A DNA stretch of 64,000 nt, from NCBI GenBank assembly GCA_000002445.1, contig CP000070.1:1056001-1120000 (forward strand). Reading direction: 5' to 3'. This document shows, piece by piece, positions 4,841 to 61,751 of the stretch. A program made the translations under genes and the position numbers. The notes below the pieces were generated by a model. It saw only the letters and a program-made list of their open reading frames with translations. It was not told the origin of the DNA and did not search any database. Each line of letters begins with the position of its first letter. Within the stretch, counting starts at the first letter, position 1. Source of the stretch: Trypanosoma brucei (taxonomy: Eukaryota).

Positions 4841-5418
4841 TGAGTATATCGCGTATATGTATACACACACACAAATATATATATATCTTGTATTTACGTC
4901 CGTATTTGTTTGTGAATGTGTAAGTATTTTAACCGGCGCTAAGGGAAATGTGACAGCGTCTTGTTCCCGAGTCGTGCACTTTTCCTACTACGGAGAGACT
5001 TTGCTACGAGGTGACGTTCTGATCGCAGCCGTACGGAAGAGTTCTACTTGGTGCTTTCATAGAAATAAGGCAACTGAGCCACAGCGGGTACCCCAACCAT
5101 TTAAATATCGAGCAGGTGTCGGTTACTTACTCATTCCTACATTTTTATCTCACCCTTTGTTAAACGCTATTTTTTAATTTTTTCTGTTTAACGTCATCGA
5201 ACGGTAAGTGCGTGTATGTGTGTGTGATTTTGCCGTATCATTGCTTACCAATGTATACAAAGAACTAAGCCTTTGCCGATGACTTTGTTTAAATGTATTC
5301 CCATTCTTTCTTTATCCTTTTTCCTTTTTCTTTTACTGCTGTCATATTATTATTTTTTTTTTGATTTTCACCATTTCTTTTTCGTGTCTGTGTTGTCTTT
5401 ACCAAACAACTAATACAT

Positions 5419-46100: not shown

Positions 46101-47388
46101 TAAGGTGTATTTTGAGTCACTGAACGAGGTACGTGAATCCATGGCGGAACACTATGGTACTCTCATGTGTGAATGCAAAACAGTATTGAGTAATGCGAAT
46201 GCTACAAGCTATGAAGCTCATCAGCAGTTGGCGGAGGAGACTCGTGCTCGTGAATTAGCTACTGACCGTCGGGTGCTTGACTTATCTAAGGTGTATTTTG
46301 AGTCACTGAACGAGGTACGTGAATCCATGGCGGAACACTATGATACTCTCATGTGTGAATGCAAAACAGTATTGAGTAATGCGAATGCTACAAGCTATGA
46401 AGCTCATCAGCAGTTGGCGGAGGAGACTCGTGCTCGTGAATTAGCTACTGACCGTCAGGTGCTTGACTTATCTAAGGTGTATTTTGAGTCACTGAACGAG
46501 GTACGTGAATCCATGGCGGAACACTATGGTACTCTCATGTGTGAATGCAAAACAGTACTGAGTAATGCGAATGCTACAAGCTATGAGGCTCATCAGCAGT
46601 TGGCGGAGGAGACTCGTGCTCGTGAATTAGCTACTGACCGTCGGGTGCTTGACTTATCTAAGGTGTATTTTGATTGTGCTGGGGTGCTATGTGACGCTGT
46701 TTTCAAAAAATGTATTTTTTTTGGTGGTGTAGTGTTTGATATTTGTCGTGATTGTTTGGTTCCTATGTCTATTTGTTCTTCCGTGTCGCTGGGCGGTGTT
46801 TATGCTTTGGGTGGCATTGATGGACTTGTGTACGAAATGGAATTGAGGAAACGGCGCATTGCAGAGTTGGAAGAATGTGTTCGGCAGAAGCACATTGTTA
46901 TCACATCACTAAAAGAGAGTATTGCCAACTTGTATGGCCTTTTGGAGGCACAGCGAGATCTTGGCATGGTCGCTCCACCTCCACCACCGTTAGTGTCGCG
47001 CGAGTTTGGTGTGCTGAACTCGAGTGCGAAAGAAGCCGTGGCATATGTGAACAGTGATGCATCTTTTTCTAGTACTTTTTTTGCATCACCATCTCGTGTT
47101 CTATCCCCTGGTGTTAATGACGGGGTGAAGTTGAAAGTGTGTCCCAGATCATTTGCTGATGAGGCTGTGTTATCAGCGGAGACAGTTGGGGGCGCTTTTA
47201 CTTCATCAAATGATCATCATGTTGCCGTTGGTGGGGTAGTTGGACACGAAGCTAATCGTACCGACCAAATTACGGATGAAGGTGAACGGTTGCAGGGCTG
47301 GAGCCTTCCTATTGATCGTAAGGAGATGCGACCAGTAAGTTGGTATTTGCAGTCTATCGCTGCCATTGAGAGTACGCTCAAGAAGTAG
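40162..47388 (+). CDS. very large repeat-containing protein, 2408 aa: about 1160-aa unique N-terminal region, 16 tandem 62-aa repeats, about 240-aa unique C-terminus
   Basis: ATG at 40162, preceded by a polypyrimidine tract at 40046..40097. Uninterrupted 7.2-kb ORF. Repeat unit ELATDRRVLDLSKVYFDSLNEVRESMAEHYGTLMCECKTVLSNANATSYEAHQQLAEEIRAR, predicted α-helical. Confidence 0.85.
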   Translation: MGNEPFLLFRGSELLPGFPSSRPEGNLAQPDEGDVERLPTHLIPIEPLTHSVVRVVCHSSTRAGMSTPLAQMCALTDVRRLLEEERDKCVETARSWEGLCALHSHYPHDHATGCMPIANEELDCVASSLSLDESFVKEVLRSKLWRVKGNAESADGKVEPDLKRLKIVVSDLCQLLWHHRDGEGSISTDGVAVPDSSERCEVVRREKRKASKVEAKSVLSIIAGLTKDSLDELTASHGSVEPLLVGLVFSEVSEETCNHSGGETVGTLVGDDLLRLFDKKVEATVENKDGYGDTVDFSARVLLLNAVMERKNMKNMAHASPMWSALLSVVNFVYVTGDPATVRYVAQLINHVQCLTQQVTAEPAPRPHSKVDISLFYTPLMGVENEEGLYPSGARCVSNLKTALSEAVVGVANKKRWKPEAFSPGGSGGFQDLLQWSLMLEHVWHHCGSAPCHKVSRGIEQWIGMAVETAADIFASTAEALLLSMYVMEPLPPVCLPVADNTETAVKSVAGSPGFSVGDVLLSAHRVSLLVFGAVVGPCASDNPLLRREALEDLYGAHLKASEAVRGRLERFCARQAERTVDASPALKNLEKYQSQWSKTVELEQGKKGDSLARILYVCMEGMHHILSTPLIKHCDVPYDLGENAIAGVDGWRCSGATTSCVGRTTTNCGYGAKVNQRCQVTESPITSSWASAAKSSAICNFTMQRLLPMLLHSLGQQPVVLNGNSIVNVGTRRAVQSWEDQRMQLEGRCRAAEAMIEHQRCVIGEIRNQRSALGNRLREAQRCMRKLVMMCVGYEEGHASYAQKLAFRLKYSLEEDITSIFVPIEVKPVAGSDAWDGGETSQQSSPSPLVCGEASMVAPLAGRDDLRRLMFRDAQMQLDACHNVVRCVCQEARENLNTLSAAMMECSISYGNVSPNESLRAMFSTSLYGTRTNEPSGGYMPPTGDQECDCDGSNQGDMYQKDDSKHTYPSTIIKVPLGLSTHNNNHKNFEGKNQPRGRALEISSNESRPLSHTGKTTWGSRDEQIYQHEKQQTLNTSTKRRYVSTPSASRCSSRDIVAVIQSPKPSKAAIDAIAHLQKKHAEGKSHHQHLKKQYEDTCLSLVKTAAEFQENIARQKIEQTCWSEQNKILLAFINTTVRETQISMMKQKIEKERTLTEEDSRKLATDRRVLDLSKVYFDSLNEVRESMAEHYGTLMCECKTVLSNANATSYEAHQQLAEEIRARELATDRRVLDLSKVYFDSLNEVRESMAEHYGTLMCECKTVLSNANATSYEAHQQLAEETRARELATDRRVLDLSKVYFESLNEVRESMAEHYGTLMCECKTVLSNANATSYEAHQQLAEETRARELATDRRVLDLSKVYFDSLNEVRESMAEHYDTLMCECKTVLSNANATSYEAHQQLAEEIRARELATDRRVLDLSKVYFDSLNEVRESMAEHYDTLMCECKTVLSNANATSYEAHQQLAEETRARELATDRRVLDLSKVYFDSLNEVRESMAEHYDTLMCECKTVLSNANATSYEAHQQLAEETRARELATDRQVLDLSKVYFDSLNEVRESMAEHYDTLMCECKTVLSNANATSYEAHQQLAEETRARELATDRRVLDLSKVYFDSLNEVRESMAEHYDTLMCECKTVLSNANATSYEAHQQLAEEIRARELATDRRVLDLSKVYFDSLNEVRESMAEHYDTLMCECKTVLSNANATSYEAHQQLAEEIRARELATDRRVLDLSKVYFDSLNEVRESMAEHYGTLMCECKTVLSNANATSYEAHQQLAEETRARELATDRRVLDLSKVYFDSLNEVRESMAEHYDTLMCECKTVLSNANATSYEAHQQLAEEIRARELATDRRVLDLSKVYFESLNEVRESMAEHYDTLMCECKTVLSNANATSYEAHQQLAEEIRARELATDRRVLDLSKVYFDSLNEVRESMAEHYDTLMCECKTVLSNANATSYEAHQQLAEEIRARELATDRRVLDLSKVYFESLNEVRESMAEHYGTLMCECKTVLSNANATSYEAHQQLAEETRARELATDRRVLDLSKVYFESLNEVRESMAEHYDTLMCECKTVLSNANATSYEAHQQLAEETRARELATDRQVLDLSKVYFESLNEVRESMAEHYGTLMCECKTVLSNANATSYEAHQQLAEETRARELATDRRVLDLSKVYFDCAGVLCDAVFKKCIFFGGVVFDICRDCLVPMSICSSVSLGGVYALGGIDGLVYEMELRKRRIAELEECVRQKHIVITSLKESIANLYGLLEAQRDLGMVAPPPPPLVSREFGVLNSSAKEAVAYVNSDASFSSTFFASPSRVLSPGVNDGVKLKVCPRSFADEAVLSAETVGGAFTSSNDHHVAVGGVVGHEANRTDQITDEGERLQGWSLPIDRKEMRPVSWYLQSIAAIESTLKK
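43651..46672 (+). repeat. 186-bp near-perfect tandem repeat array, 16 full units plus about 46 bp of a 17th, entirely in-frame within the giant CDS
   Basis: The ttagctactgaccgtcgggtgc unit start recurs at 43651, 43837, 44023 … 46627, period exactly 186 bp. Units differ only at a few sites (GAC/GAG, GGT/GAT, ATT/ACT, CGG/CAG, CTG/TTG, GAA/GAG). Confidence 0.95.
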
Positions 47389-47800: not shown

Positions 47801-48367
47801 ATGCCCTCACTAGCGAACGGGTTGCGTTGCCCGGATGCGCTCATCACCCGGACGTTGAATCCGCTACTCAATGGACCGAAGTTTGCGGTAATATACTGTG
47901 GAAATCACCAGTACAAAGTTGCGGTAGGCGATGTCATTGCGGTTCAGCGGCTTCGGGTCGAAATAGGAAGTCATATTGCTCTTAAAAAGGTGCTGATGGT
48001 AGGTGGCCCGCGCTTCACGGCTATCGGCCGTCCTCTTCTTGAAGGTGTACGGGTAACCGCACAGGTGGAGGAGCAAAAGCGGATGCGCAATGTGGTTTCG
48101 TTATTTGCCACGCCAGGTAGGCGACATGTGCGGTGGGTGGATGCACCTCATGCTGCAACAGTTATTCGCATTTGTGAAATATTTTACTCTCCCAATGTGG
48201 TTGGTGAGTTGGATAAGTACAAGGGCGAGTTGTTGGAAACGTTTACACCAGGTCAGCACACGAACCCAGTGTACCCCGTTGATGATGGCTATGACGTGTT
48301 TAGGAAGAAAGATAAGGAGGCCATGGAGAATGCCACCACCTTTCTCGACCTTTTGGGTGGTGTGTGA
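47801..48367 (+). CDS. mitochondrial ribosomal protein bL21m (bacterial L21 family), 188 aa
   Basis: ATG at 47801. FAVIYCGNHQYKVAVGDVIAVQRLRVEIGSHIALKKVLMVGG…RVTAQVEEQKRMRNVVSLF…HAATVIRI parallels bacterial bL21 (YAVIxTGGKQYKVxxGDxIxVEKL…VxAxVxxHGRGxKVxxFK…TxVxI). An N-terminal extension is consistent with a mitochondrial targeting sequence. Confidence 0.7.
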   Translation: MPSLANGLRCPDALITRTLNPLLNGPKFAVIYCGNHQYKVAVGDVIAVQRLRVEIGSHIALKKVLMVGGPRFTAIGRPLLEGVRVTAQVEEQKRMRNVVSLFATPGRRHVRWVDAPHAATVIRICEIFYSPNVVGELDKYKGELLETFTPGQHTNPVYPVDDGYDVFRKKDKEAMENATTFLDLLGGV

Positions 48368-48776: not shown

Positions 48777-51700
48777 ATGGTCGTTCATCTTACCCCACTA
48801 AAACGTCCGCAGTTACTCGACTTGTGTGGGCTTACGGGGTCGGTGTTGCGCGCTGTTGCCGCGTCTGCTCAAATCAACGGGTCGGCGAATTGTCCGCCCA
48901 GCAGTGAAAGTAGCAATGGCAACCATCATCCCCACCCTAACGGACACAGTGGTGATGATGGTATTACTAGTAATAAGGAGCACATTGGTGGTGATCGGAG
49001 CGGAAAACATTCCCGGTGTGAACATCCGCTAATGTGCGGAACGTTTTGTGACGTTTTGGAGGACCCGTACACGAAAGATACATGGAGACTGCACGATAAA
49101 ATGCTGTATTTGGTGTGGTGGTCGCACCGTCCAACTTCTTGTACCAACTGCGGTACGCAAGATGCATGGCTGCCGTCAGAAGATAGTGAGTTGAAATGCT
49201 GGAACTGCGGAACCGGCGCGGGCACTACCGCTGATCATGACATTGTTGAGGAAAGGTTTGATGAGGCGAATATGAGCGAGGAGGAGGAGGGGGGTCCGGA
49301 CCGCAGCATGGTGGAGGGTGAAACAAGTGGTGGTTTTGCCACGGGGGACAACAATGCTGTGGTTGCAACTGGCGGTAGTGCCGTCTCTCTGTACTCATTT
49401 TTCTATGAATGGATATCAGTTTTGCAGTCAACGAAGCAGCTCTCGGGCATACGACTCCCTAAAGGTGAATGTCTTTCGCAGGTATTGCGGGCGGCGTACG
49501 ACCTGGCCATGCTGTTCGTGCTCCCGGGGACGCCCGGGTCGGGAGCAATGGCGATGTGGGGAGGGGCGCTCTTTTTGAGTTTGACCTTGTACCGGTATGC
49601 TGTGCCGTTTCCCCTCTTTCAGTTAGGTGGACAGTTATACGATCTGAGGGAATCCCCAAAAGCTTCTTCTGATAACCGTGAGCGGATTGAAAACTTGCAA
49701 TGGGTTGACGTGGAGTTGCTCTCATCTCTAATCGGGGTTGTGCTTCCCGATTTCTTTGAGTCGTGTAGCGTTGGAGAGCAGTACATGTGTAACGTGATGA
49801 CGGTAACAGCACAGTTCGGCGTTCCTAGCTGTATTTGGCATCCCCGTCGCATTTCGTGGTATCAAGATTCCATCCTGCTGATGAAAAAACGTAGGCGGCT
49901 ACCCACACAAACTCATGGCACGCCATTTCCTAGCGAAATTTCACCTGAACACACGGCGATGATAGCCCTACTTGAGTTGGCTCGATTGTTTGATTCTAAA
50001 CCGTCAAGTGCCAGTGTGTCCGCGCGTGTTGGTAAGTGGTTGGACGAGAATGGGCTGTATCCGCAGCGTACCTCTTATCGATCGAAAGAATGTGGTGATG
50101 AAAACTTGAATGATGACAATCAACAGCCGAATGCAGCAGAAGCAGCGGGTAACGCCTCTATACCTGCAGCCGAAGAGGATACTGCGTGGGCATGTGGCTC
50201 ACTTACTACTACGAGTTCTCCGTTTGCCGGAGCTATGCACCACGTTTTACAATCCCCATGTGCCAATGCACTTCTCTACATGTTCGCTGAGGTGTTTTCA
50301 ATCCCTGCGCTTGAGTTAGCTGATATGGCAAGTAGTAGTGGAATGTACGGAGGCCCTGTGCGCACCTTTGAGGTGCTGCGAGACTCTGCATGCTCGGGGA
50401 ATTATGGCTTAGTGCCTCTGTCACGGAGAATTTCCCCGATAGTTTCCCCTTGGACAAGTGTATATTTTGCCATACACTCCAACGATCGCCTACCATTTCT
50501 TGCAGCACTGCAGCACGTTCGAAGTGCGACATCGCGTGAAAAAGAAATTCACTTTGTCCGACTCATTCAGGCCATTCTGCGCAAACACCAAAGCACGCGG
50601 CGTTATCAATTTAACTATACCATAAATGTGAAGAGTGAGAAGTCAATGTCACAAATCGACGGAACTTATTTTCTTTGCTATGTCGCAGAGCAGTTTGCCG
50701 TCTTCGCGGCCATTGGTTCCGCCCAGAGGACTTTAACCTTTGACAGCACGAACAAAAGCATAACGTTTAACTCCCCTCAACTCCGTGACGTGGAGGTGGA
50801 GCTTATTCCTGAGAAACGAATGTCCTCTAGTGCTAAAAGTGAGAAACCACATGAGGAGGCGTCACAGGCTTCGGTGGGGCAATCGCCGCATTTCCGTGGC
50901 CATCACCATGACAAATTTCAAAACAATCAATATCAATCGCTGCCGGGCGCCGCGCGTCCACAGTCGCAACGGGATGCCCATCGTATCCATATTAAATTCA
51001 GTGGCCCTGTTATAGCGAACGTGGAAAGCAGCAGCGCTAAGTGTGTGATTGATTGCGCGCGGCAAGACTTGGGTTCTGTGCAATGGCAGTCAGTGGTTCG
51101 GCGGCTGGAGCGCTGTGGGCGTATTCGCAGACGCATGAGGGTTCCGATGCTCGCGTCGCGCCTGGACGCGTTAGCTTCCGTCCGGGAGTCGACGGCGATG
51201 ACATCACATCCCATGAACGGTTCTTCCACACTCGGGTGGAGAGATACAGAGAGCCTCTTTGGATCAACACACCACATGTTGTACGTGTCGCAGAAGTACA
51301 CGGCTACAACACTTAGGCGCGAGGTGCAACAGGATGTGTTGTCATTACTGAGACCGTCGCTTGTCTTTGGAATGTCAGAAAGTCGTGTTGTCACAATGTA
51401 TGCTGCCCTCATCGCTTTGTTGGAAATCACTGACAGACAACTGGGATCTCAGGCTCGTACGTCACCGCGTGTGCCTGGAGGACCGCCAGCGCGCACGTGG
51501 TTAGATGAATTACTGAGCAAGGAAGAGTGGAACTTTGATGACAGGCCTACGCAGAAAACGTTAAATGATACGCCTTCGCCGCCATATCCCAACCGAGATA
51601 CCAACGGAGGAGGGGACGCGATGGTGCTCCCTGCTTCAACAGCAGCCGTCCAGAGGGAACAACAGGACGCAAAGCACCGTAACTCTTCTGACGGACAACA

Positions 51701-52532
51701 AAGGTGTCCAAACGGTTCGCGCCATTCGACGCAATGCAACGCAACTACAGAAGCCTTTCCAAGCTATGAGGAGGTATTAATGGGACGTGTCAAAATGATC
51801 ACTAACGGTGCTGGAGGTCGAAACTCGGGGACGCGGTTCCTGCGGTTTACGAAGTCTCAGAAGCAGCGACGACCCTGCACTGAGGGTAGCGCGGGTGGTG
51901 TTAGCGTCGATAATCCTTCAGCATCAGCTGTTGACGACCCGTCAAATCTCAACTTCACTTCGTTTAACCTGTTTAAAGCGGAGATATGTAGGAGACGGCT
52001 CTACCGACTTCTCTGTTTTATTGACGAGTACAAAAGGAAAGGACATGCAGAACTCAAGCGGCCACCGCACGAAATACGAGCAGACACGCACATGGCAGTG
52101 AAAGCAGAGGATCATAAGGCTTTCAAGAGAGAGGATTCACCTCCGCTATATTCCGCGCAGACTCCTAACGTGTGCGCTAATCGCTCTCCAAGGCACAGTT
52201 TTACATCTGCTCGCAAAAGTAACACTCCATTACTGGGGCCTCAGCCAAATAAAACGACCCCAACAACACCTCCACGACACGCGACATCTCCCATTGTGGA
52301 GCCAATAAAACTACCACCTCAGGCAGAACAATCCGTGTGGGGTTGTCGCAGCTCCGGATCTTCCGGTCACCGCAACGGTGATAACACAAACCATACCCAC
52401 AATCGCATTTATCACACTGGTGTGGGTGACAGGCCACCCCAATCCCGCGCCTCCAGCAACGACGGAGGTTCAATTGAAAACAGGAAACCTATGGGTGAGT
52501 GGTCTTCTAAGAAATTTCGGCGGACGAAATGA
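48777..52532 (+). CDS. hypothetical protein, 1251 aa, with N-terminal Cys-rich segment (CTNCG…CWNCG) resembling a zinc ribbon
   Basis: ATG at 48777 directly after ccccacAG. Polypyrimidine tract 48741..48776. Long uninterrupted ORF. No other recognisable domain. Confidence 0.65.
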   Translation: MVVHLTPLKRPQLLDLCGLTGSVLRAVAASAQINGSANCPPSSESSNGNHHPHPNGHSGDDGITSNKEHIGGDRSGKHSRCEHPLMCGTFCDVLEDPYTKDTWRLHDKMLYLVWWSHRPTSCTNCGTQDAWLPSEDSELKCWNCGTGAGTTADHDIVEERFDEANMSEEEEGGPDRSMVEGETSGGFATGDNNAVVATGGSAVSLYSFFYEWISVLQSTKQLSGIRLPKGECLSQVLRAAYDLAMLFVLPGTPGSGAMAMWGGALFLSLTLYRYAVPFPLFQLGGQLYDLRESPKASSDNRERIENLQWVDVELLSSLIGVVLPDFFESCSVGEQYMCNVMTVTAQFGVPSCIWHPRRISWYQDSILLMKKRRRLPTQTHGTPFPSEISPEHTAMIALLELARLFDSKPSSASVSARVGKWLDENGLYPQRTSYRSKECGDENLNDDNQQPNAAEAAGNASIPAAEEDTAWACGSLTTTSSPFAGAMHHVLQSPCANALLYMFAEVFSIPALELADMASSSGMYGGPVRTFEVLRDSACSGNYGLVPLSRRISPIVSPWTSVYFAIHSNDRLPFLAALQHVRSATSREKEIHFVRLIQAILRKHQSTRRYQFNYTINVKSEKSMSQIDGTYFLCYVAEQFAVFAAIGSAQRTLTFDSTNKSITFNSPQLRDVEVELIPEKRMSSSAKSEKPHEEASQASVGQSPHFRGHHHDKFQNNQYQSLPGAARPQSQRDAHRIHIKFSGPVIANVESSSAKCVIDCARQDLGSVQWQSVVRRLERCGRIRRRMRVPMLASRLDALASVRESTAMTSHPMNGSSTLGWRDTESLFGSTHHMLYVSQKYTATTLRREVQQDVLSLLRPSLVFGMSESRVVTMYAALIALLEITDRQLGSQARTSPRVPGGPPARTWLDELLSKEEWNFDDRPTQKTLNDTPSPPYPNRDTNGGGDAMVLPASTAAVQREQQDAKHRNSSDGQQRCPNGSRHSTQCNATTEAFPSYEEVLMGRVKMITNGAGGRNSGTRFLRFTKSQKQRRPCTEGSAGGVSVDNPSASAVDDPSNLNFTSFNLFKAEICRRRLYRLLCFIDEYKRKGHAELKRPPHEIRADTHMAVKAEDHKAFKREDSPPLYSAQTPNVCANRSPRHSFTSARKSNTPLLGPQPNKTTPTTPPRHATSPIVEPIKLPPQAEQSVWGCRSSGSSGHRNGDNTNHTHNRIYHTGVGDRPPQSRASSNDGGSIENRKPMGEWSSKKFRRTK

Positions 52533-53425
52533 GGAGGTGGTGAGCGATGTTGAATCGAGGGTTATCAAGTAGAAAAAGGGTAACAACAACGAGGTGTGGT
52601 GTGCCCACGTGCACGGGAGTGCTGGAAGAAGTAGTCTGTCCCCCAACGGGTAAAACAGCCTCTTCCCTGGCTTTTACTGGATTCGTTTCCCTTCCTTCCA
52701 ATGCGTATGCATTGGTACGCAAAATTTAAAGGGTGGAGGAGGGGAGGGGAAATATGTACTTGATTTTTTAGGGCACCGCCTGGACAAGAAGGCACGCGGT
52801 TGGGGGTAAAGCATTCGCGTAATTAAGTGCTTTGCGTTTCTTGTTTGTATGATGGCTTGATTTCTGCAGTGTGTCGCACCCCTCCCTTTTCACCATATTC
52901 CAATGAAAAAATGGGGTGCGAGTTTTGTGATGAATCTCGTGTACGACCGTATAAGTATAAGTTTCCTTCCACATGCTTTATCTGCACACAATACTGAGTT
53001 TGTTGTTTATGTTCTTAAAGTACGTTCATTCTTTTGCTTGTACAGGTAATCACATCATGTCTGTTACCTCTGCTTGTGCACTTACTTTCGATAACTCCAC
53101 GCTCGGTTTCAGTATTGAATGATGTTTTTTCCTTCTTTTTTTCCCCCTTCTCTCGCTATTTCGTGTCAATGTTACCTATCTCGCTAGGCTCTTTAACCGA
53201 GACGCGTCACCGGCTCATTTTCGCAGCAGACAAAAAATTTGTTGACGAACCCTAGCGGAGGAGGGTGAAGATCAGCTCACAAAAGAAAACAAAGGAAGAG
53301 TAAGTAGCAACAAAGGAGAAAGGCGGGTGCAGGGAGGTAAAAAAACTGAAACCGTCCAATAAAGACAAATAAATTTTAAGGAAGCATACAGGCAACAACA
53401 TACATTCTCCCCTAAGAAAAATTTA

Positions 53426-53466
53426 GGTTTTTTTTGTTGTTTTTTATTTTTTTCCTTCTATTGTTA
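53426..53466 (+). promoter_or_regulatory. polypyrimidine tract upstream of ELO copy a
   Basis: ggttttttttgttgttttttatttttttccttctattgttaAG immediately 5' of ATG 53482. Confidence 0.45.
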
Positions 53467-53481
53467 AGTGATTTGCCGAAG

Positions 53482-54387
53482 ATGTTGATGAACTTCGGGG
53501 GCTCCTACGATGCCTACATAAATAACTTCCAAGGTACCTTTCTTGCGGAGTGGATGTTGGATCATCCATCGGTTCCTTACATCGCAGGCGTCATGTATCT
53601 CATTCTTGTACTCTACGTACCGAAAAGCATTATGGCGAGTCAACCGCCCCTCAATCTTAGGGCCGCCAACATCGTGTGGAATCTGTTTCTGACATTATTT
53701 TCAATGTGCGGCGCGTATTACACCGTTCCGTACCTCGTGAAAGCGTTCATGAATCCTGAAATTGTCATGGCAGCCTCGGGGATAAAATTAGACGCAAACA
53801 CCTCACCAATAATCACACATAGTGGTTTCTATACCACCACGTGCGCTTTGGCTGATAGCTTTTACTTCAACGGTGATGTGGGTTTCTGGGTTGCACTTTT
53901 TGCCCTGTCAAAGATCCCTGAAATGATTGACACGGCCTTTCTTGTCTTCCAAAAGAAGCCGGTTATTTTTCTACACTGGTACCATCACCTCACTGTGATG
54001 CTTTTCTGTTGGTTTGCCTACGTGCAGAAAATTTCCAGCGGTCTGTGGTTTGCCTCCATGAACTATTCTGTCCACTCCATCATGTACTTGTACTACTTTG
54101 TATGTGCCTGCGGTCACCGTCGCCTCGTCCGTCCATTCGCTCCGATAATTACATTTGTGCAAATATTTCAGATGGTGGTGGGTACGATTGTTGTGTGTTA
54201 CACGTACACTGTAAAGCATGTGTTGGGAAGGAGCTGCACAGTAACAGACTTCTCTCTTCATACTGGTTTGGTAATGTATGTGAGTTACCTGCTTCTTTTT
54301 TCGCAGCTCTTCTACCGCAGCTATCTCAGTCCGAGGGATAAGGCCAGTATTCCACACGTAGCAGCGGAAATAAAGAAAAAAGAGTAA
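53482..54387 (+). CDS. ELO-family fatty-acid elongase (3-ketoacyl-CoA synthase), copy a of three in tandem, about 301 aa
   Basis: The track start at 53434 is TTG; the first ATG is at 53482. All four ELO signature boxes are present: SKIPEMIDT (KxxExxDT), LHWYHHLT (HxxHH), HSIMYLYYF (HxxMYxYY), ITFVQIFQM (TxxQxxQ). Multiple TM helices. C-terminal K-rich tail KKKE (ER-retention-like). Confidence 0.88.
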   Translation: MLMNFGGSYDAYINNFQGTFLAEWMLDHPSVPYIAGVMYLILVLYVPKSIMASQPPLNLRAANIVWNLFLTLFSMCGAYYTVPYLVKAFMNPEIVMAASGIKLDANTSPIITHSGFYTTTCALADSFYFNGDVGFWVALFALSKIPEMIDTAFLVFQKKPVIFLHWYHHLTVMLFCWFAYVQKISSGLWFASMNYSVHSIMYLYYFVCACGHRRLVRPFAPIITFVQIFQMVVGTIVVCYTYTVKHVLGRSCTVTDFSLHTGLVMYVSYLLLFSQLFYRSYLSPRDKASIPHVAAEIKKKE

Positions 54388-55706
54388 ATGAAAGAATGGG
54401 GAGTTTAGTGGAGGATGGGGAAGAGCACGCACGCGTGTCTGCTCACGTGCTTATGTGTTTTGACAATGTTGAAGGTAAAAAGAAAAGAAGGAAAATGAGA
54501 AGAGTGATGGGTGGTGTTCGTCGCAGGCATGATCTGTGGCGTGTCCCTGCACTTGGTTCGATTTATTGCATTGGTTTCATTTCCTTTTCTCTTTTTTTTG
54601 TTCATAAAAAAATGCACACGCACGCAGTCGCACGCTCAGCTGTTCGCTTCGGTTGCTTGCTACTCCCCTACCATATTGTTTTTTGTGTGTGTATTTTGCA
54701 GTTGTAACTTCCACCTTCCCTTACTTTCACTTTGGGATGAACCAAAAAATAAAGGAAACGAAAATAAAAACGAAAAAAAGGAACATATATATATATATAT
54801 ATGCTAAATGTCATACGAGTTATTTAGCGCATACACACAAAGAGGTGTGTGTGTGTGTATTGGTAGGGCAATAATGCATCACCGTATCCCTCAAGCAATT
54901 CTACTCTGTTGACTCCATTCCTCCTCTCCTATCTTTTTTTACCCTTGTTTATTTTTCTCTTTTGAGGGACCGAACAAAAAAAAAATACGACAGTCACTTC
55001 TGAATAAGCAGCATTGTGGCAACGTATATTTTTTGTGTTCTTTTTTGTCCCCTTTAGCTCCCCTATTTTTCCACAGGGACACTTTGTTTCCTTCCTCCTT
55101 CGCACATACGGTAAACATACATACATACATACACATGTACACACAAACACATATTATATTATATATATATATATATATATATAATATGAGTGTGTGCCGT
55201 TGTGCGTGTGAAGGTTCGCTCACAGATATCCCTCAAACGTTAAACTCCCGTATTAAACGGTGGAAGAAAACAATATAAAAAAAGGGGAAGGGAGTCCAAC
55301 CGCGTAATATTGGGCGTAATAAATGTAGTGTGGCCAATCTTTCGTTTGTTTCAGTTCTTGTCACAAAATTAGTCTCTCTCCTTTCTTCTTCCTTCTTCAC
55401 CTACTCTTGCGGATATATACATGTGCGTACAAATGCACGCGGGTATATATGAATATTTGTTTGAGTCGTTCTGGTATTGAAAAGGTTACGACAGCAAACG
55501 ATACTTTTTAACAGAAAATAAATACGCTGAACGACTCGATTTATTAGTGAGGGTTGAGTGCATACAAATATACAAAAGTAGGTAAAAATATATTTAAATA
55601 TAAATATATATATATATATATATATCAACTCACAGAGCCTTTCTGGTGAGAAGGAAGCGTATTCGGTTAACAGAAATTAAACGAATAGTGGCGTAAGTGC
55701 GACGAG

Positions 55707-56522
55707 ATGTTTCCATACGTCACAGACTATAGCGGTTTTGCTATCAGGAAATGGATGATTGATAATGTGGATGTTGCCGGCTTCCTTTGCCTCTTGTATC
55801 TTGGGCTTGTGTGGAAGGGACCAGGCGTCGTGAAGAGCCTCAGAGAAAAGAATTTAATCAATGCAACACTTCTTCAGGGCGTTTTTATTATGTGGAATCT
55901 CTTTTTGTCCACCTTTTCCGTCATCGGAATGATCGTCGTTGTTCCCGCCGCTATTGCACACATCAGCAACAAGGGACTTGTTCCCGCTCTTTGCGAGAGG
56001 GATGTAAACATGATTTACGACTCTCCCGTCGGTTTCTGGGTTGGTGTGTTTGCGTTGTCAAAAATACCGGAATTGTTTGACACGGTTCTTCTTGTTTTGC
56101 AGGGGAAACAACCTCCGTTCCTTCATTGGTATCACCACACCACCGTGTTAATCTTCTCTTGGCAAAGCTACTGCGAGGGAAGTAGTACCATATTTGTCTT
56201 TGTTGCCATGAACCTGACGGTACATGCCGTCATGTACTTTTACTTCGCCATGTGTGCCAGTGGATTCAAGGCGATTATGCGAACCATTGCTCCGGTTATT
56301 ACAATTATGCAAATTTTGCAGATGATAGTTGGCAGCGCTGTAACAATGTACTCCGCATATGTACTTTACAATCCTCAACCTGATGGGCCACAGACTTGCG
56401 ATGTGACAAAAGCAAGCGCTCGGATGGGAGTGGTGATGTATTTGAGTTATTTGTACCTCTTCGCTGCGCTGTTTGTTGAGTCATACCTGAAACCAAAAAA
56501 GAGGACCGAAAAGTCGAAATGA
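55707..56522 (+). CDS. ELO-family fatty-acid elongase, copy b, 271 aa
   Basis: ATG at 55707. Signature boxes SKIPELFDT, LHWYHHTT, HAVMYFYFA, ITIMQILQM. C-terminal KPKKRTEKSK. Confidence 0.88.
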   Translation: MFPYVTDYSGFAIRKWMIDNVDVAGFLCLLYLGLVWKGPGVVKSLREKNLINATLLQGVFIMWNLFLSTFSVIGMIVVVPAAIAHISNKGLVPALCERDVNMIYDSPVGFWVGVFALSKIPELFDTVLLVLQGKQPPFLHWYHHTTVLIFSWQSYCEGSSTIFVFVAMNLTVHAVMYFYFAMCASGFKAIMRTIAPVITIMQILQMIVGSAVTMYSAYVLYNPQPDGPQTCDVTKASARMGVVMYLSYLYLFAALFVESYLKPKKRTEKSK

Positions 56523-58440
56523 AGTACGGGACGGTAAAGAAAACAACAACGGGGTAATTTTTTTTTGTTTTTTCTTGTTTGTTTGTTGTAGAAACGTGGG
56601 TAACCGGGGAGGGGATGAGGGGGAGAAACGCCACTGGCACGGGACTAATGAACTAACGCCTTTTTATTTATTTATTTATTACCCTCTTCCCTTTTGTTTT
56701 TGGGAATGGAGGGGAAGAAGAAAACCATAACGCGATGCGTCGCAGCGTTTCGGTATGCGAGGAAGAGAGAGGGGAAAAACAAAAAGGAGCAGACAATTTT
56801 GAATGGCAGGGATGAGGGAAGAAAAAACAGTTTGGCACGTTCGACTGTTTTAATACTCGCTATTGAAACGAAAAAAAAAAATAAAAGAAAAGACAAACAA
56901 GCGCGCAAGTAAAATTAAGACCCAAACTGAGCAGGACGGAGCAAATTTTCCAAAACAAAAAATTACCTTGTGAGGAATCACAACTGATATGCGAGCAATC
57001 GGAAGGGAAAAGCAAAAGGAAAATTTGTGCGTGAAGGAGGGCATAACAATGAAGTAAATGCCAAGAAAGAAAGGAAAAAGAAAAAGAACAAAGTAGATAC
57101 TTACAATACAATACAAAAAAAAAGTAGGAAAACAGATGGCTTGAATGTATTATTTCTTCCGATGCGTTATTTTCCCCCTCTCCATGGTCCCCGTTTATGT
57201 CCTCTCAACTTACCGCTACCACGAGCCCAATAATTTATAAACAAAGCTCGTGGCATATGTGTATGTATGTGTATGTGTATATGTGCGTATGTATGTATGC
57301 ATGCATAATTATTTTTGCATTCATATGGACGCATATAAACGCATATACACATGTTTCTTTTTTTTTTTGTTTCGCCTTCTAAATCCCCTCCCCACTTTGG
57401 GGGGGGGGGAGAGTAGTGGTTTTATTTCGTTTCGTTTTAGTTTTTTATCATTTTTTTTAAATATAATAATTTCATATTTATCTCGTAATTATTTTATTTT
57501 TCGTAGTTGTTGTGTTTGTTTCCTCATTTATTCACAACCAATCACTCTCTTCGTTATATTTTTGGTTGCTTTTGACGACTACTTTACTACAATCATTATT
57601 ATTATTATCATTATTGTTCCTTCTTTTTCTTTTTTGTGTTATTATTTCAAAAAAATTGTAATAAAATAAACATTCACGCTACTTCGTGGTTGTTCACTCA
57701 TGAGAATGTTCTCATGAATATCGCAGCGGATTTGTTTGTCTATTAATTTTTTTTTCACCTTTTTAATTTCTCTCCTCATTTCTCTCTACACTCAATCACC
57801 TTATATTCCACTACTTTAGCCGTTTAGTGAAATCATATGACTAAATAAGCGCATTGACGTGAGCGTGAGCTGAAAGTGCTTTGTATATAATAAAAAAAAA
57901 AGAAAAAAGGCGCGGTTTTTAAAAAAAAAAATAGATAAATAAAATAATTCATCTGTCGATGAGAAATGGGAAATGTTTTCTGCCGTGGGGAGCTGATGCC
58001 GACGCCAATGGAAAACAGCCGGTTGACTCCGTCTAAAAACTTAATCGTGGCTATTTTATTTTTTTGTAACTTTAATTGCAACTTGAGGCTGTTGGAGTTA
58101 CTGGTGCATAATGAAGTGATACACGAAGGAGAGACGGATTATATTCTTCTTATCTGTAATGTCTTATGGGTGGTTTTTTTTTTGGGGGGGATAATACTGT
58201 AAAAGGAAAGCATAGGTGACGCACATTTTTGCGCCGTTGGTGTTGTTGTTCTTGTTGAGTGTAAATGTAAAATTATTTTCCAGAAATGGGGTGCTGCTGT
58301 GGGTTGTCGTGACAAACACTTCCTAACTTAATTATGATAATGCCAAACACTAGCAGGGATTGTGGAAGTTACAATCGGAAGGCCGATTCGTGTTTAACTC
58401 GATGAATATTATGTAAATGTGATGTTCGCCGTGTTTAAAC

Positions 58441-58522
58441 TTCTTCGTTTCTCCCTTCAGTACGCTCATTTGTTGTTTTCTGTGTCCGGTTTTTTTTCCT
58501 GTTTTGTTTGCCTCCTTCAACC
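58441..58522 (+). promoter_or_regulatory. polypyrimidine tract upstream of ELO copy c
   Basis: ttcttcgtttctcccttcAGtacgctcatttgttgttttctgtgtccggttttttttcctgttttgtttgcctccttcaacc. Several candidate AG acceptors. Confidence 0.4.
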
Positions 58523-58697
58523 TGGACGTTTGCGCGCCCACTCACATACACGATAGTGAAGAAAAGGCATACAAAAAGAGTAAAAAAAATAAATAAAAGA
58601 AGTAAGGGAAAGTAAAGGAAAAAAAAAGAGGTAGCGTGTGCATCGAGTTCGACTGCGTCAAGAAAACCGGAATATAATACATCCTTAAGCACGACAA

Positions 58698-59615
58698 ATG
58701 TTTTTTACTCCTCCACAACTTCAGAAGCTTGAGCAGGACTGGAATGGGCTCGCAGTGCGTGATTGGATGATTGCCAATGTGGATGTTGTGTTGTACATCT
58801 CTTTCCTCTACCTTGGATTCGTATTTATTGGCCCAAAATTGTTCGCTAAGCTTGTTGGCACAAACCCGGCCGCTGCTGCTGCTGGAGCCCGAAGCGCTGA
58901 CGGCACCGGCTCTCCAATCGTTCGCCGGTCGATGGTTGTGTGGAATTTGGCGCTTTCAATTTTCTCCATCTTCGGCACAAGCACTGTGACGCCTGTACTT
59001 CTGCGTAACCTTGCCAATAAGGGGTTCTACGGTGCCACCTGTGACTTCAAGGAAACGGAATTTTACACAACAAATGTTGGATTCTGGATGGGTATTTTCG
59101 CTCTTTCAAAGATACCGGAGCTTGTTGACACGATATTCCTCGTGTTGCAGGGCAAACAGGAGTTGCCTTTCCTTCATTGGTATCACCATGTGACAGTTCT
59201 GTTGTTCTCATGGCACACGTACTGTGTAGGGAGTAGCGCATACATTTGGGTGGCCGCTATGAATTACTCCGTACATTCCGTCATGTACCTTTACTTCGCC
59301 CTTGCAGCATTAGGATACAAACGCGTAGTTCGCCCACTTGCGCCGTACATCACAATTATACAGATACTACAAATGGTTGTGGGTTGTTATGTGACTATTT
59401 TTGCACTTCAGGAGTTGCATGGGGAGGGGGGTCGCGGATGTGGTGTGTCGCCAGCGAACATGCGCATTCAATTGGTGATGTACGCCAGTTATTTGTACCT
59501 CTTCTCGAAGATGTTTGTGGCGTCGTACATTCGACCCCCCAAGCGCCCGACTGTTGGCGGTCCCTCCTCAACAGCCGGCGTCAGCAACGGTTCTGTCGAG
59601 AAGAAAGTTAAATAA
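58698..59615 (+). CDS. ELO-family fatty-acid elongase, copy c, 305 aa, with Ala/Gly-rich loop insertion between the first two TM helices
   Basis: ATG at 58698. Signature boxes SKIPELVDT, LHWYHHVT, HSVMYLYFA, ITIIQILQM. Insertion GTNPAAAAAGARSADGTGSPIV at roughly nt 58860..58925. Polypyrimidine tract 58441..58522 upstream. Confidence 0.88.
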   Translation: MFFTPPQLQKLEQDWNGLAVRDWMIANVDVVLYISFLYLGFVFIGPKLFAKLVGTNPAAAAAGARSADGTGSPIVRRSMVVWNLALSIFSIFGTSTVTPVLLRNLANKGFYGATCDFKETEFYTTNVGFWMGIFALSKIPELVDTIFLVLQGKQELPFLHWYHHVTVLLFSWHTYCVGSSAYIWVAAMNYSVHSVMYLYFALAALGYKRVVRPLAPYITIIQILQMVVGCYVTIFALQELHGEGGRGCGVSPANMRIQLVMYASYLYLFSKMFVASYIRPPKRPTVGGPSSTAGVSNGSVEKKVK

Positions 59616-61157
59616 TGACCTGTTGACTGAGCGGCAGATACATACAACACTCTCATGTACACGCGCCATGAGAAACTTTCATTTAGTGAAGTTGTTTTGC
59701 ATGTTCGTATCAAACTGTCGCCCCCCCTTTTTTTTACTTCTCTTTTCTTCTTTTTGTTTTTCTTTTTTTTTTCTTGTTGTTTTATGTTTAAATACTTTTA
59801 TGGTTTGAGGGTAATAACAAAACGGAAAAGAAAAAACAGAGTGGATTGCTGTGGTATCGTTGCACACATCCTTTTCTTATTATTGTCTCACTTTTCTCAT
59901 CTCCCTTCCTTTCTTTTTTTTTTTTTACCGGTGTGCACCAGTAGCCACGGCGGGAAAGGGGGGAAGGAATGAGAAATGAATCAAAGAGGAAGAGAAATAA
60001 ACAACAATAATGAAAAAAAAAAGATTCTTTTATATTAATTCGTATGACCTTTGAATAACGAAACGGAGAGGTTAGCGGTGAATTATCTCAAGCAGAACCG
60101 TGTGACGCATGACAGGCGTAACACATGCGGTACGACGCGTCTCTTCAGTCACCACACGATGAGGACTGAAGGATTGTTGAAGGCAATGTTGTGCTGTTGG
60201 CCTCTTGTTTTTTTTGTTTTGTTTTGTTTTTTTCGTGGGAATTGTTGGGCACAGGACGCGTTTTCCTCTTCTTTTTTTCTTCCTTCTTTTTTTTTTTTTA
60301 CTTTCTCTTCTGTTTTATCTTATCACTTTACGTGTTGTTAAACATTTTTTTTTGTTGTTGTTGTTCTTTTCCCTTACAACTTATGTTTCGCTAGTATGAA
60401 AGGAAAATGAATTTAAAATTATAAGGGAAGAAAAATGGTGGAGTTTCGCCGTTGCTGTTGTTGTTGGTATTTTTATTTCTGACATAATTGTGTGGCTTTT
60501 GCTTTTCGTTCATTTGGCATACAGCTACCAGTGACACTACAAAATAGGCGGAGAAGGGAAAGAAAACAGAGCAGGAAAAAGAAAAAAAACCGCGAAAGAG
60601 AAGGGAAGAAATAGGAGGAAACAAGATGAAACGAAACGAAACGAAAACAGAGGGGATTGTTGTTTTTGTTTTTTGTTTTTGTTTTTTTTTGTCTTTGGTT
60701 TTGGTTTCTGATACTGGAAAAGATTGAGACAACATCGCTGGTGTTAGGCTTCAAAGTACTCACATTTTTCCTTTTTATTTTATTTTATTTTATTCTTTTT
60801 CAATATTTATACCTCGTTTCAGTGCCTCTCTCCCTCATTTTGTTCCTCCCATACGGTGTGGAAAGTTTATTTATTTATGTGGAGGGGGGAGGGGACGTGA
60901 CGGGGTTCGTAAATTGTGTTCGTTTATTTTATCTACTCACTCGACTCTCTCCATGCTTCTTTTTTTTTTCCTCTTCCTTTTTTTGTTTTTTTTATGTTTT
61001 TGTGCCATGTTTCACGAATTGTAACGTATTTATAATTCCTCCGTATGATTGACACATTACAGTGAGTTGCGTTCCTCCTAAAAAAAAAAAGTATACGCAC
61101 ACACACGCACACAGGTATAAATATATTTACATATTTTATTTTGTTTATAGATATACA

Positions 61158-61751
61158 ATGAGTCAGTTTGGTCAACTTGTGTGCTTCAAGTGCCGCAAGA
61201 TATTAAGTTATCCCTTAGGAGCCGTAAGTTGCCGTTGCCGCAACTGCAACACCATCAATCCTGCACAAAACCTCCACATCACCTGCGGTTGTTGCTTTCG
61301 GCATATTTTGGTACCCATCAACACACTCACATTTTTATGCCCCTGTTGTGCCACAATAACGGATATACCGCAGTCACTTCTTCCATTAGTGGAAGGTCCA
61401 GTAAGTGTTGGTACAGAAACGGATCGTGTAGTCAAGACGATTTATGTCACATACCCCGGGAAAGCAAAACCAAAGGATAAAAATCGAAAGGGAATGAAAC
61501 ATGATGATGATGATGATGATGATGATAGGGAAAGTGAAGAAGAGGGTTGCAGCTCTGGTGGTGGTGGTAATATTGTGATGGGCGGAAAGGCAACGGCAAC
61601 TGGAAGGGAAGGAGGAGGTTGTAAAACAGGACCTCTGGATGGTGATGATGGTGATGATGATGAGCAACTTGTCGGTGATGGCCAGCGGAGCGTATCAAAC
61701 CGACATGAGGGATCGAATGTTATTATGGTAGTAGGAACACGCATATTATAG
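61158..61751 (+). CDS. small protein (197 aa) with two tandem LSD1-type zinc fingers (C-x2-C-x14-C-x2-C), then poly-Asp and Gly-rich tail
   Basis: The track start at 61062 is GTG; the first ATG is at 61158 (MSQFGQLV…). Finger 1: CFKCRKILSYPLGAVSCRCRNCNTIN. This fits the plant zf-LSD1 consensus CxxCRxxLxYPxGAxxVRCxxCNTIN almost residue for residue. Finger 2: CGCCFRHILVPINTLTFLCPCCATIT, same spacing with the Pro and the TI conserved. Fingers span nt 61182..61349. A D8 tract follows at about nt 61500..61525. Confidence 0.65.
   Translation: MSQFGQLVCFKCRKILSYPLGAVSCRCRNCNTINPAQNLHITCGCCFRHILVPINTLTFLCPCCATITDIPQSLLPLVEGPVSVGTETDRVVKTIYVTYPGKAKPKDKNRKGMKHDDDDDDDDRESEEEGCSSGGGGNIVMGGKATATGREGGGCKTGPLDGDDGDDDEQLVGDGQRSVSNRHEGSNVIMVVGTRIL

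What the first reader, a model, noticed from the sequence alone, without database searches (positions are those of the whole stretch)
53482..59615. Tandem triplet of diverged ELO fatty-acid elongases: the modular elongase pathway locus
Three same-strand ORFs each carry the complete ELO box set: KxxExxDT, HxxHH, HxxMYxYY, TxxQxxQ. They share only moderate identity. N-termini and loop lengths differ: copy b is 271 aa, and copy c has an Ala-rich insertion GTNPAAAAAGARSADGTGSPIV. They are separated by 1.3-kb and 2.2-kb spacers rich in (TA)n and (CATA)n. This is the arrangement reported for T. brucei ELO1-3, which elongate C4 to C10, C10 to C14 and C14 to C18 sequentially in place of a type I/II cytosolic FAS (Lee et al. 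2006). The divergence implies an old duplication with sub-functionalisation by chain length. Which copy is which cannot be decided from sequence alone. If the window is in chromosome orientation, my recollection of the reference numbering would make the order ELO3-ELO2-ELO1.
Basis: partly seen in the sequence, partly recalled or inferred. Interest (0 to 1): 0.55.

Follow-up and report, generated by a model that had tools for sequence, protein, structure and literature searches.

The report
Known T. brucei ELO3-ELO2-ELO1 elongase locus

Summary
Three intact + strand ORFs lie at 53482-54387 (301 aa), 55707-56522 (271 aa) and 58698-59615 (305 aa). Each is a full-length Pfam ELO protein (E about 1e-72), and they share only 40-48% identity. 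The spacers are 1319 and 2175 bp.

An exact-sequence look-up identifies them as T. brucei brucei TREU927 ELO3, ELO2 and ELO1, in that order. They sit on a 2.2-Mb record with consecutive protein accessions.

The literature assigns ELO1 C4 to C10, ELO2 C10 to C14 and ELO3 C14 to C18.

My tree shows each copy grouping with orthologues from other trypanosomatids (bootstrap 84-100). The duplications are therefore old, and I found no gene-conversion tracts between the copies.

Small corrections:
- HxxMYxYY is exact only in ELO3; ELO2 and ELO1 have HxxMYxYF.
- Long (TA)n runs occur only in spacer 1.
- The Ala-rich loop of ELO1 is a loop shared by all Trypanosoma ELO1 orthologues, not a T. brucei insertion.
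- The copies can be told apart by database identity.

T. rangeli carries a fourth ELO gene upstream of ELO3 that this window lacks.

Verdict: already known, low interest.

The parts
53482..54387 (+). ELO3 coding sequence (301 aa + stop). It is a 3-ketoacyl-CoA synthase that takes C14 to C16/C18. Motifs: KIPEMIDT, HWYHH, HSIMYLYY, TFVQIFQ. C-terminal KKKE.
   Evidence: ORF. Pfam ELO E 5e-73. Exact match to ELO3_TRYB2 / XP_846039.1. Motifs. Chain length from the literature.
54388..55706 (+). Spacer 1 (1319 bp, GC 0.377). Presumed to hold the ELO3 3' UTR, the intergenic stretch and the ELO2 5' UTR. Contains (AT)n and (ACAT)n microsatellites and pyrimidine tracts. No annotated gene.
   Evidence: The 103-aa ORF at 54396-54707 is not in the protein collection. 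The UTR assignment is inference.
55707..56522 (+). ELO2 coding sequence (271 aa + stop). It is a 3-ketoacyl-CoA synthase that takes C10/C12 to C14. Motifs: KIPELFDT, HWYHH, HAVMYFYF, TIMQILQ.
   Evidence: ORF. Pfam ELO E 7e-72. Exact match to Q57UP7 / XP_846040.1. Motifs. Chain length from the literature.
56523..58697 (+). Spacer 2 (2175 bp, GC 0.365). Presumed to hold the ELO2 3' UTR, the intergenic stretch and the ELO1 5' UTR. Contains a (TATG/TGTA)n tract at 57256-57303 and poly-A and poly-T runs. No ELO relic and no Rfam match.
58698..59615 (+). ELO1 coding sequence (305 aa + stop). It is a short-chain 3-ketoacyl-CoA synthase that takes C4 to C10. Motifs: KIPELVDT, HWYHH, HSVMYLYF, TIIQILQ. 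The loop between helices 1 and 2 is disordered and Ala-rich (Ala run at 58869-58883). C-terminal KKVK.
   Evidence: ORF. Pfam ELO E 3e-72. Exact match to Q57UP8 / XP_846041.1. Model pLDDT 89.8 with seven long helices. Best PDB match ELOVL7 6Y7F, TM 0.77.
52533..53481 (+). Upstream intergenic region (949 bp) between the 1251-aa ORF and ELO3. Pyrimidine tracts at 53124-53151 and 53425-53473 are candidate trans-splicing signals. T. rangeli has a fourth ELO gene at this position; here there is none, and no relic.
   Evidence: The splice-signal role is inference.
59616..61157 (+). Downstream intergenic region (1542 bp, GC 0.357). Presumed to hold the ELO1 3' UTR up to the zf-LSD1 gene. It is very T-rich and low in complexity.

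Best explanation
This is the Trypanosoma brucei brucei TREU927 chromosome 7 locus that encodes the microsomal fatty-acid elongases ELO3, ELO2 and ELO1, in that 5' to 3' order.

Each protein is the condensing enzyme (3-ketoacyl-CoA synthase) of an ER elongation cycle. It takes an acyl-CoA and adds two carbons from malonyl-CoA. By homology with human ELOVL7, it does so through a ping-pong mechanism with an acyl-imidazole intermediate on the second His of HxxHH.

The three enzymes have staggered chain-length preferences: ELO1 C4 to C10, ELO2 C10 to C14, ELO3 C14 to C18. Working in series, they replace a type I fatty acid synthase for bulk synthesis. Working singly, they can each extend scavenged fatty acids.

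The genes lie in one same-strand polycistronic unit. Any differential expression must therefore act after transcription, presumably through their unrelated UTR-bearing spacers.

Basis of each step:
- Shown here: identity, order, intactness, family membership, conservation of the catalytic residues, the fold of ELO1, and the age of the duplications.
- Taken from the literature: chain-length specificities, ER location and stage regulation.
- Inferred: the catalytic mechanism by homology, and the role of the UTRs.
For: - Exact full-length identity of the three products to ELO3_TRYB2, Q57UP7 (ELO2) and Q57UP8 (ELO1) of TREU927 on one 2.2-Mb record.
- The flanking bL21m and zf-LSD1 genes carry the adjoining accession numbers.
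- Full-length Pfam ELO hits.
- The only sequence-detectable solved homologue is ELOVL7 6Y7F (E 6e-10).
- ELOVL7 residues K124, D130, H147, H150, H151, N177, H181, T208, Q211 and Q214 align with columns that are invariant in all three copies.
- The ELOVL7 mechanism comes from bioRxiv 10.1101/2020.11.11.378570.
- The ELO1 model has pLDDT 89.8 and pTM 0.86 with seven long helices. Its best PDB match is 6Y7F, prob 1.00, TM 0.77.
- Chain-length roles: PMC8561143 and PMC10203773. Gene IDs: PMC11867338. Perinuclear ER location: PMC5519215.
- All 18 ORFs of 180 aa or more that do not overlap a longer ORF lie on the + strand.
- Orthologue clades: ELO1 bootstrap 100, ELO2 99, ELO1+ELO2 sister 100, Trypanosoma ELO3 84.
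- The same order and flanks occur in T. rangeli.
Against: Nothing found here contradicts it. Limits:
- Lee et al. 2006 itself could not be read, so the specificities are taken from later papers that cite it.
- Which locus tag (Tb927.7.4160, 4170 or 4180) belongs to which ELO is inferred from accession order and my own recollection. It was not read from a source.
- Catalysis by acyl-imidazole has been shown for ELOVL7, not for the trypanosome enzymes.
- UTR boundaries and any regulatory elements were not determined.
Confidence: 0.97

Rival explanations
1. The three genes are long-chain, PUFA or VLCFA elongases (ELO4/ELOVL type) rather than the C4 to C18 de novo module.
For: Copy a (ELO3) sits in a larger clade that also holds bodonid sequences, and metagenome proteins labelled 'ELOVL6' are among the hits. 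The only solved homologue is a VLCFA elongase, ELOVL7.
Against: The products are identical to the proteins named ELO1-3, whose substrates were measured. The PUFA elongase ELO4 is listed under a chromosome 5 gene ID, Tb927.5.4530. No fourth ELO is in the window.
Confidence: 0.01
2. The array is a recent tandem duplication kept similar by gene conversion, with redundant copies, or one copy is decaying.
For: The arrangement is tandem and same-strand. Partial gene conversion between neighbouring ELO genes does occur in T. rangeli, where a 403-nt tract is 93.8% identical.
Against: Protein identity is only 40-48% and nucleotide identity 48-54%. The best shared DNA stretches are 66-71% identical over the catalytic core. 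The spacers share no element beyond low complexity. Each copy has its own orthologue clade across trypanosomatids. All three ORFs are intact with all catalytic residues.
Confidence: 0.01
3. The chain-length division is looser than the linear ELO1, ELO2, ELO3 relay. On this view the enzymes overlap in substrate range and have separate cellular roles, so 'modular pathway' describes them only in part.
For: In T. cruzi the knock-outs show some functional overlap, for example residual butyrate elongation in the elo1 mutant that is attributed to ELO2. They also show distinct roles in mitochondrial function and growth (PMC10203773).
Against: This refines the best explanation rather than replacing it. 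The same paper confirms sequential C4 to C16/C18 synthesis.
Confidence: 0.3

Closest known systems
T. brucei ELO1, ELO2, ELO3 (Lee, Stephens, Paul & Englund 2006, Cell 126:691; UniProt ELO3_TRYB2, Q57UP7, Q57UP8)
   Same: Identical sequences, same strain, same gene order and neighbours.
   Different: Nothing; this is that locus.
T. cruzi / T. rangeli ELO arrays (T. cruzi ELO1-3 studied in PMC10203773)
   Same: Orthologous genes with the same order ELO3-ELO2-ELO1. The same flanks are present: a large protein of about 1200 aa upstream and zf-LSD1 downstream. The orthologue clades are well supported.
   Different: T. rangeli has a fourth ELO gene (283 aa) just upstream of ELO3. Its clade has members in T. 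vivax, T. grayi, T. theileri, T. melophagium, T. conorhini and T. cruzi marinkellei, but none from T. brucei among the hits. The window has only a 949-bp gap at that position.
Human ELOVL7 (PDB 6Y7F) and the ELOVL/ELO family, Pfam PF01151
   Same: The same seven-helix fold (TM 0.77), the same histidine box, and all residues implicated in catalysis are conserved.
   Different: Identity is only about 22%. ELOVL7 extends C16-C20 acyl-CoAs, whereas ELO1 starts from C4, a range not used by animal or yeast ELOs. ELO2 and ELO1 have YF rather than YY in the third box.
T. brucei ELO4 (Tb927.5.4530)
   Same: Same family and same organism.
   Different: It is unlinked, on chromosome 5 by its gene ID, and it is a polyunsaturated long-chain elongase. 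It is not in this window.

Membership tests
ELO / GNS1-SUR4 fatty-acid elongase family (Pfam PF01151) | Full-length match to the family profile above the curated cut-off | tested here: met
   All three score 242-246 bits against a cut-off of 27 and cover profile positions 1 to 240 or 241 of 242.
ELO / GNS1-SUR4 fatty-acid elongase family (Pfam PF01151) | Histidine box HxxHH, plus the KxxExxDT and TxxQxxQ boxes | tested here: met
   Each box is present once in each protein. The columns are invariant among the three copies and among 75 homologues.
ELO / GNS1-SUR4 fatty-acid elongase family (Pfam PF01151) | HxxMYxYY box | tested here: inconclusive
   The box is literal in ELO3 (HSIMYLYY). ELO2 has HAVMYFYF and ELO1 has HSVMYLYF. 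The His, Met and first two Tyr are kept. F for the last Y is clade-wide in ELO1 and ELO2 (column 274), so it is a conservative variant and not a defect.
ELO / GNS1-SUR4 fatty-acid elongase family (Pfam PF01151) | Residues needed for ELOVL7/EloA catalysis (K124, D130, H150, H151, N177, H181, Q211, Q214 in ELOVL7 numbering) | tested here: met
   They align to K144, D150, H168, H169, N194, H198, Q227 and Q230 of ELO3, and all are invariant in the three copies.
ELO / GNS1-SUR4 fatty-acid elongase family (Pfam PF01151) | Seven-transmembrane-helix ELOVL fold | tested here: met
   Tested on ELO1 only. The model has pLDDT 89.8 and seven long helices. The top PDB match is 6Y7F with TM 0.77 and prob 1.00. 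ELO2 and ELO3 were not modelled, and their crude hydropathy plots give several hydrophobic segments but not a clean count.
ELO / GNS1-SUR4 fatty-acid elongase family (Pfam PF01151) | 3-ketoacyl-CoA synthase activity with malonyl-CoA | not testable with these tools
   Reported for these proteins in the literature.
T. brucei ELO1-3 modular elongase locus | Sequence identity to the deposited TbELO1, TbELO2 and TbELO3 | tested here: met
   Exact full-length matches.
T. brucei ELO1-3 modular elongase locus | Tandem same-strand arrangement with the expected neighbours | tested here: met
   Accessions run consecutively from XP_846037 (bL21m) through XP_846039, XP_846040 and XP_846041 to XP_846042 (zf-LSD1). 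The arrangement is syntenic with T. rangeli.
T. brucei ELO1-3 modular elongase locus | Staggered chain-length specificity: C4-C10, C10-C14, C14-C18 | not testable with these tools
   Taken from PMC8561143 and PMC10203773, which cite Lee et al. 2006.

The most novel reading that the evidence does not exclude
The few features that are fixed within each orthologue clade but differ between clades may be what sets the unusual short- and medium-chain windows of these enzymes, or what gives them separate regulation. These features are:
- the disordered loop between helices 1 and 2 of ELO1, which ends in a conserved DGTGSPxVRR;
- the loop of about 22 aa between helices 2 and 3 of ELO3;
- ten clade-diagnostic residues, such as ELO1 L156/P157 against ELO3 V161/I162 just before HxxHH, and ELO1 Q258 against G in ELO2 and ELO3.
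Separately, the T. brucei lineage may have lost a fourth tandem ELO that other trypanosomes keep. None of this was tested beyond alignment.
Probability: 0.2. Interest if true: 0.3.

Novelty: already known. Interest (0 to 1): 0.08.

Why it matters
The locus matters biologically. It is how African trypanosomes make fatty acids without a type I synthase, including the myristate needed for VSG GPI anchors. But it was described in 2006 and has been followed up many times since. It opens no new question.

Tried and rejected
- Rfam scan of the whole window at gathering thresholds found nothing.
- blastn of the four intergenic stretches against each other, looking for shared UTR elements, gave only short low-complexity matches: the best between different stretches was 31 nt (E 1.5e-5, down vs spacer 1) and the two ELO spacers shared only 20 nt at E 0.02. 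The repeat finder gave only T-rich, A-rich and AT families, plus the conserved coding boxes.
- tblastn for a fourth ELO or a relic, using the three window proteins and six members of the 'fourth ELO' clade, found none in the window.
- The spacer ORFs 54396-54707 (103 aa) and 59655-59972 (105 aa) are not in the protein collection, so they were treated as chance ORFs.
- The T. congolense and T. vivax ELO2 orthologues did not appear among the listed hits. I considered a lineage loss and dropped the idea, because PMC8384185 reports a T. congolense ELO2 orthogroup and its expression. For T. vivax I have no literature check, so I make no claim either way.
- Lee et al. 2006 (PubMed 16923389) and Smith & Butikofer 2010 (PMC3744938) are not held.
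- Kyte-Doolittle hydropathy was too crude to count helices and was replaced by a structure prediction for ELO1.
- A literature search for the yeast 'molecular caliper' rule gave only the reference and no usable text, so no caliper-residue mapping was attempted.
Full report
**1. What is there**

The ORF listing finds three + strand ORFs at 53434/53482-54387, 55707-56522 and 58698-59615. For the first ORF, the ATG at 53482 gives 301 aa; the upstream TTG is an artefact of the bacterial start-codon rule. None has an internal stop.

Each protein matches Pfam PF01151 (ELO, GNS1/SUR4) over the whole profile, with E about 1e-72.

- Pairwise protein identity is 40% (a-b), 41% (a-c) and 48% (b-c).
- Nucleotide identity over aligned codons is 48-54%.
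- KxxExxDT, HxxHH and TxxQxxQ are present in all three.
- HxxMYxYY is literal only in copy a. Copies b and c have HxxMYxYF.
- The Ala-rich segment of copy c, and a loop of about 22 aa private to copy a, are both there.

The spacers are 1319 and 2175 bp and AT-rich (GC 0.377 and 0.365).

- Spacer 1 carries three (AT)n runs and an (ACAT)n run.
- Spacer 2 has only a (TATG/TGTA)n tract and no long (TA)n.

**2. Identity**

An exact-sequence look-up returns:

| Window copy | Database entry | Accession |
|---|---|---|
| a | ELO3_TRYB2, 'Fatty acid elongase 3' | XP_846039.1 |
| b | Q57UP7, 'Fatty acid elongase 2' | XP_846040.1 |
| c | Q57UP8, 'Fatty acid elongase 1' | XP_846041.1 |

All are T. brucei brucei TREU927 proteins on a 2,205,233-bp record.

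- The upstream bL21m gene (47801-48367) is XP_846037.
- The downstream zf-LSD1 gene (61158-61751) is XP_846042.

The window is therefore collinear with the annotation, and no gene is annotated in the spacers. PMC11867338 lists the characterised elongase genes as Tb927.7.4180.4170.4160 and Tb927.5.4530. Which tag goes with which ELO I infer from accession order and from memory.

**3. How it works**

From the literature:

- Trypanosomes lack type I FAS and have a mitochondrial type II system.
- They make bulk fatty acids with ER elongases that use malonyl-CoA and acyl-CoA.
- ELO1 extends C4-C8 to C10 starting from butyryl-CoA, ELO2 extends C10/C12 to C14, and ELO3 extends C14 to C16/C18.
- Each can also act alone on exogenous substrates (PMC10203773; PMC8561143).
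- Down-regulation of ELO3 in bloodstream forms is said to favour myristate for GPI anchors.
- The proteins co-purify with the perinuclear ER (PMC5519215).

Mechanism by homology:

- The only solved relative is human ELOVL7 (6Y7F; E 6e-10).
- Its structure and mass spectrometry support a ping-pong reaction with an acyl-imidazole on the second His of HxxHH. N177, H181, Q211 and Q214 assist malonyl-CoA decarboxylation.
- All these residues align with invariant columns of the three window proteins.
- A model of ELO1 built on 75 homologues has pLDDT 89.8 and seven long helices. Low confidence is limited to the Ala-rich loop and the C-terminal tail.
- The best PDB match of that model is 6Y7F, with TM 0.77.

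ELO3 and ELO1 end in KKxx (KKKE, KVKK-type KKVK). ELO2 ends in EKSK.

All 18 ORFs of 180 aa or more that do not overlap a longer ORF lie on the + strand; the three minus-strand ones each lie inside or overlap a longer + strand ORF. This fits one polycistronic unit. Copy-specific regulation is therefore presumably post-transcriptional, which is an inference.

**4. Age of the duplication**

A profile search returned 1001 homologues at E of 1e-30 or better. A neighbour-joining tree of 62 named kinetoplastid sequences, with 100 bootstraps, gives:

- an ELO1 clade (Trypanosoma plus Leishmania, Phytomonas and Strigomonas), bootstrap 100;
- an ELO2 clade (Trypanosoma plus Leishmaniinae and Angomonas), bootstrap 99;
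- ELO1 and ELO2 as sisters, bootstrap 100;
- a Trypanosoma ELO3 clade, bootstrap 84, inside a larger group that also contains bodonids.

The duplications therefore predate the split of Trypanosoma from the Leishmania lineage.

There are no conversion tracts within the window. The best DNA matches between copies are 66-71% identical over the catalytic core. The spacers share nothing beyond low complexity.

**5. Comparison with relatives**

The T. rangeli locus reads: 1220-aa protein, ELO (283 aa), ELO3 (300), ELO2 (279), ELO1 (288), zf-LSD1. Order and flanks are the same, with one extra ELO upstream of ELO3. The window has 949 bp at that position and no relic.

The ELO1 loop is present in every Trypanosoma ELO1. 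Its sequence is variable, but it ends in a conserved DGTGSPxVRR. The ELO3 loop is likewise clade-wide.

Ten alignment columns are at least 90% conserved within each clade yet differ between clades. They are candidates for specificity and are untested.

**6. Verdict**

The thing is already known in full: sequence, function and pathway. Interest is low. Only minor corrections and a few passing observations come out of the check.

Noticed in passing
L001:4510-5361 and L001:7020-7922 (T. rangeli, GCA_003719475.1 MKGL01000094.1): T. rangeli has a fourth ELO gene (283 aa) directly upstream of ELO3. The 3' halves of that gene and of ELO3 share a 403-nt tract at 93.8% identity (4866-5267 against 7436-7837), while their 5' halves are diverged. 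This looks like partial gene conversion between tandem paralogues. Nothing comparable exists among the three T. brucei genes.
   Followed up: partly
window 52533-53481: The position that holds the fourth ELO in T. rangeli is a 949-bp gene-free gap here, with no ELO relic by tblastn. The fourth-ELO clade has members from T. vivax, T. grayi, T. theileri, T. melophagium, T. conorhini and T. cruzi marinkellei, but no T. brucei member among the 120 best hits. This suggests loss in the T. brucei lineage.
   Followed up: partly
window 58869-58883 (Ala58-Ala62 of ELO1): The alanine run in the ELO1 loop varies in length among T. brucei-group sequences. TREU927 and T. equiperdum have 5 Ala, T. b. gambiense DAL972 has 6, and two Logan assemblies have 7. 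The loop is the only low-confidence internal stretch of the model (pLDDT about 58).
   Followed up: partly
window 56508-56522 (C-terminus of ELO2): ELO3 (KKKE) and ELO1 (KKVK) end in a canonical KKxx di-lysine ER-retrieval motif. ELO2 ends in EKSK, which fits neither KKxx nor KxKxx.
   Followed up: no
window 48777-52532: The exact sequence of the 1251-aa ORF just upstream of ELO3 is not in the protein collection, although all its neighbours are. The annotated start probably differs. It has no Pfam match. A syntenic 1220-aa protein without Pfam hits sits at the same place in T. rangeli.
   Followed up: no
window 40162-47388: This 2408-aa 'hypothetical conserved' protein has whole-protein Pfam scores for DUF5748, XPG_I and DUF948, but no single stretch passes on its own. 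Its cluster mates differ greatly in length (2284 aa in T. b. gambiense, 4145 aa in T. b. equiperdum), which points to a repetitive, length-variable gene.
   Followed up: no
window 47801-48367: This gene encodes the mitochondrial ribosomal protein bL21m (Pfam Ribosomal_L21p, E 3e-20). A cluster mate (P0139, at least 90% identical) carries the chain AV identifiers of the solved T. brucei mitoribosome structures (6HIV, 6HIX, 6YXX).
   Followed up: partly
window 53425-53473, 55029-55056, 58465-58500: Pyrimidine tracts lie upstream of each ELO start codon. The one before ELO3 ends only about 10 nt before the ATG. Either the 5' UTR is very short, or the more distant tract at 53124-53151 is the real trans-splicing signal. 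This cannot be decided without spliced-leader mapping.
   Followed up: no
window 1-64000: All 18 ORFs of 180 aa or more that do not overlap a longer ORF are on the + strand, and cumulative GC skew rises across almost the whole window, with small dips only near 18-20, 34-38 and 52-54 kb. This fits a single polycistronic transcription unit with no strand switch. Rfam finds no RNA family in the window.
   Followed up: partly
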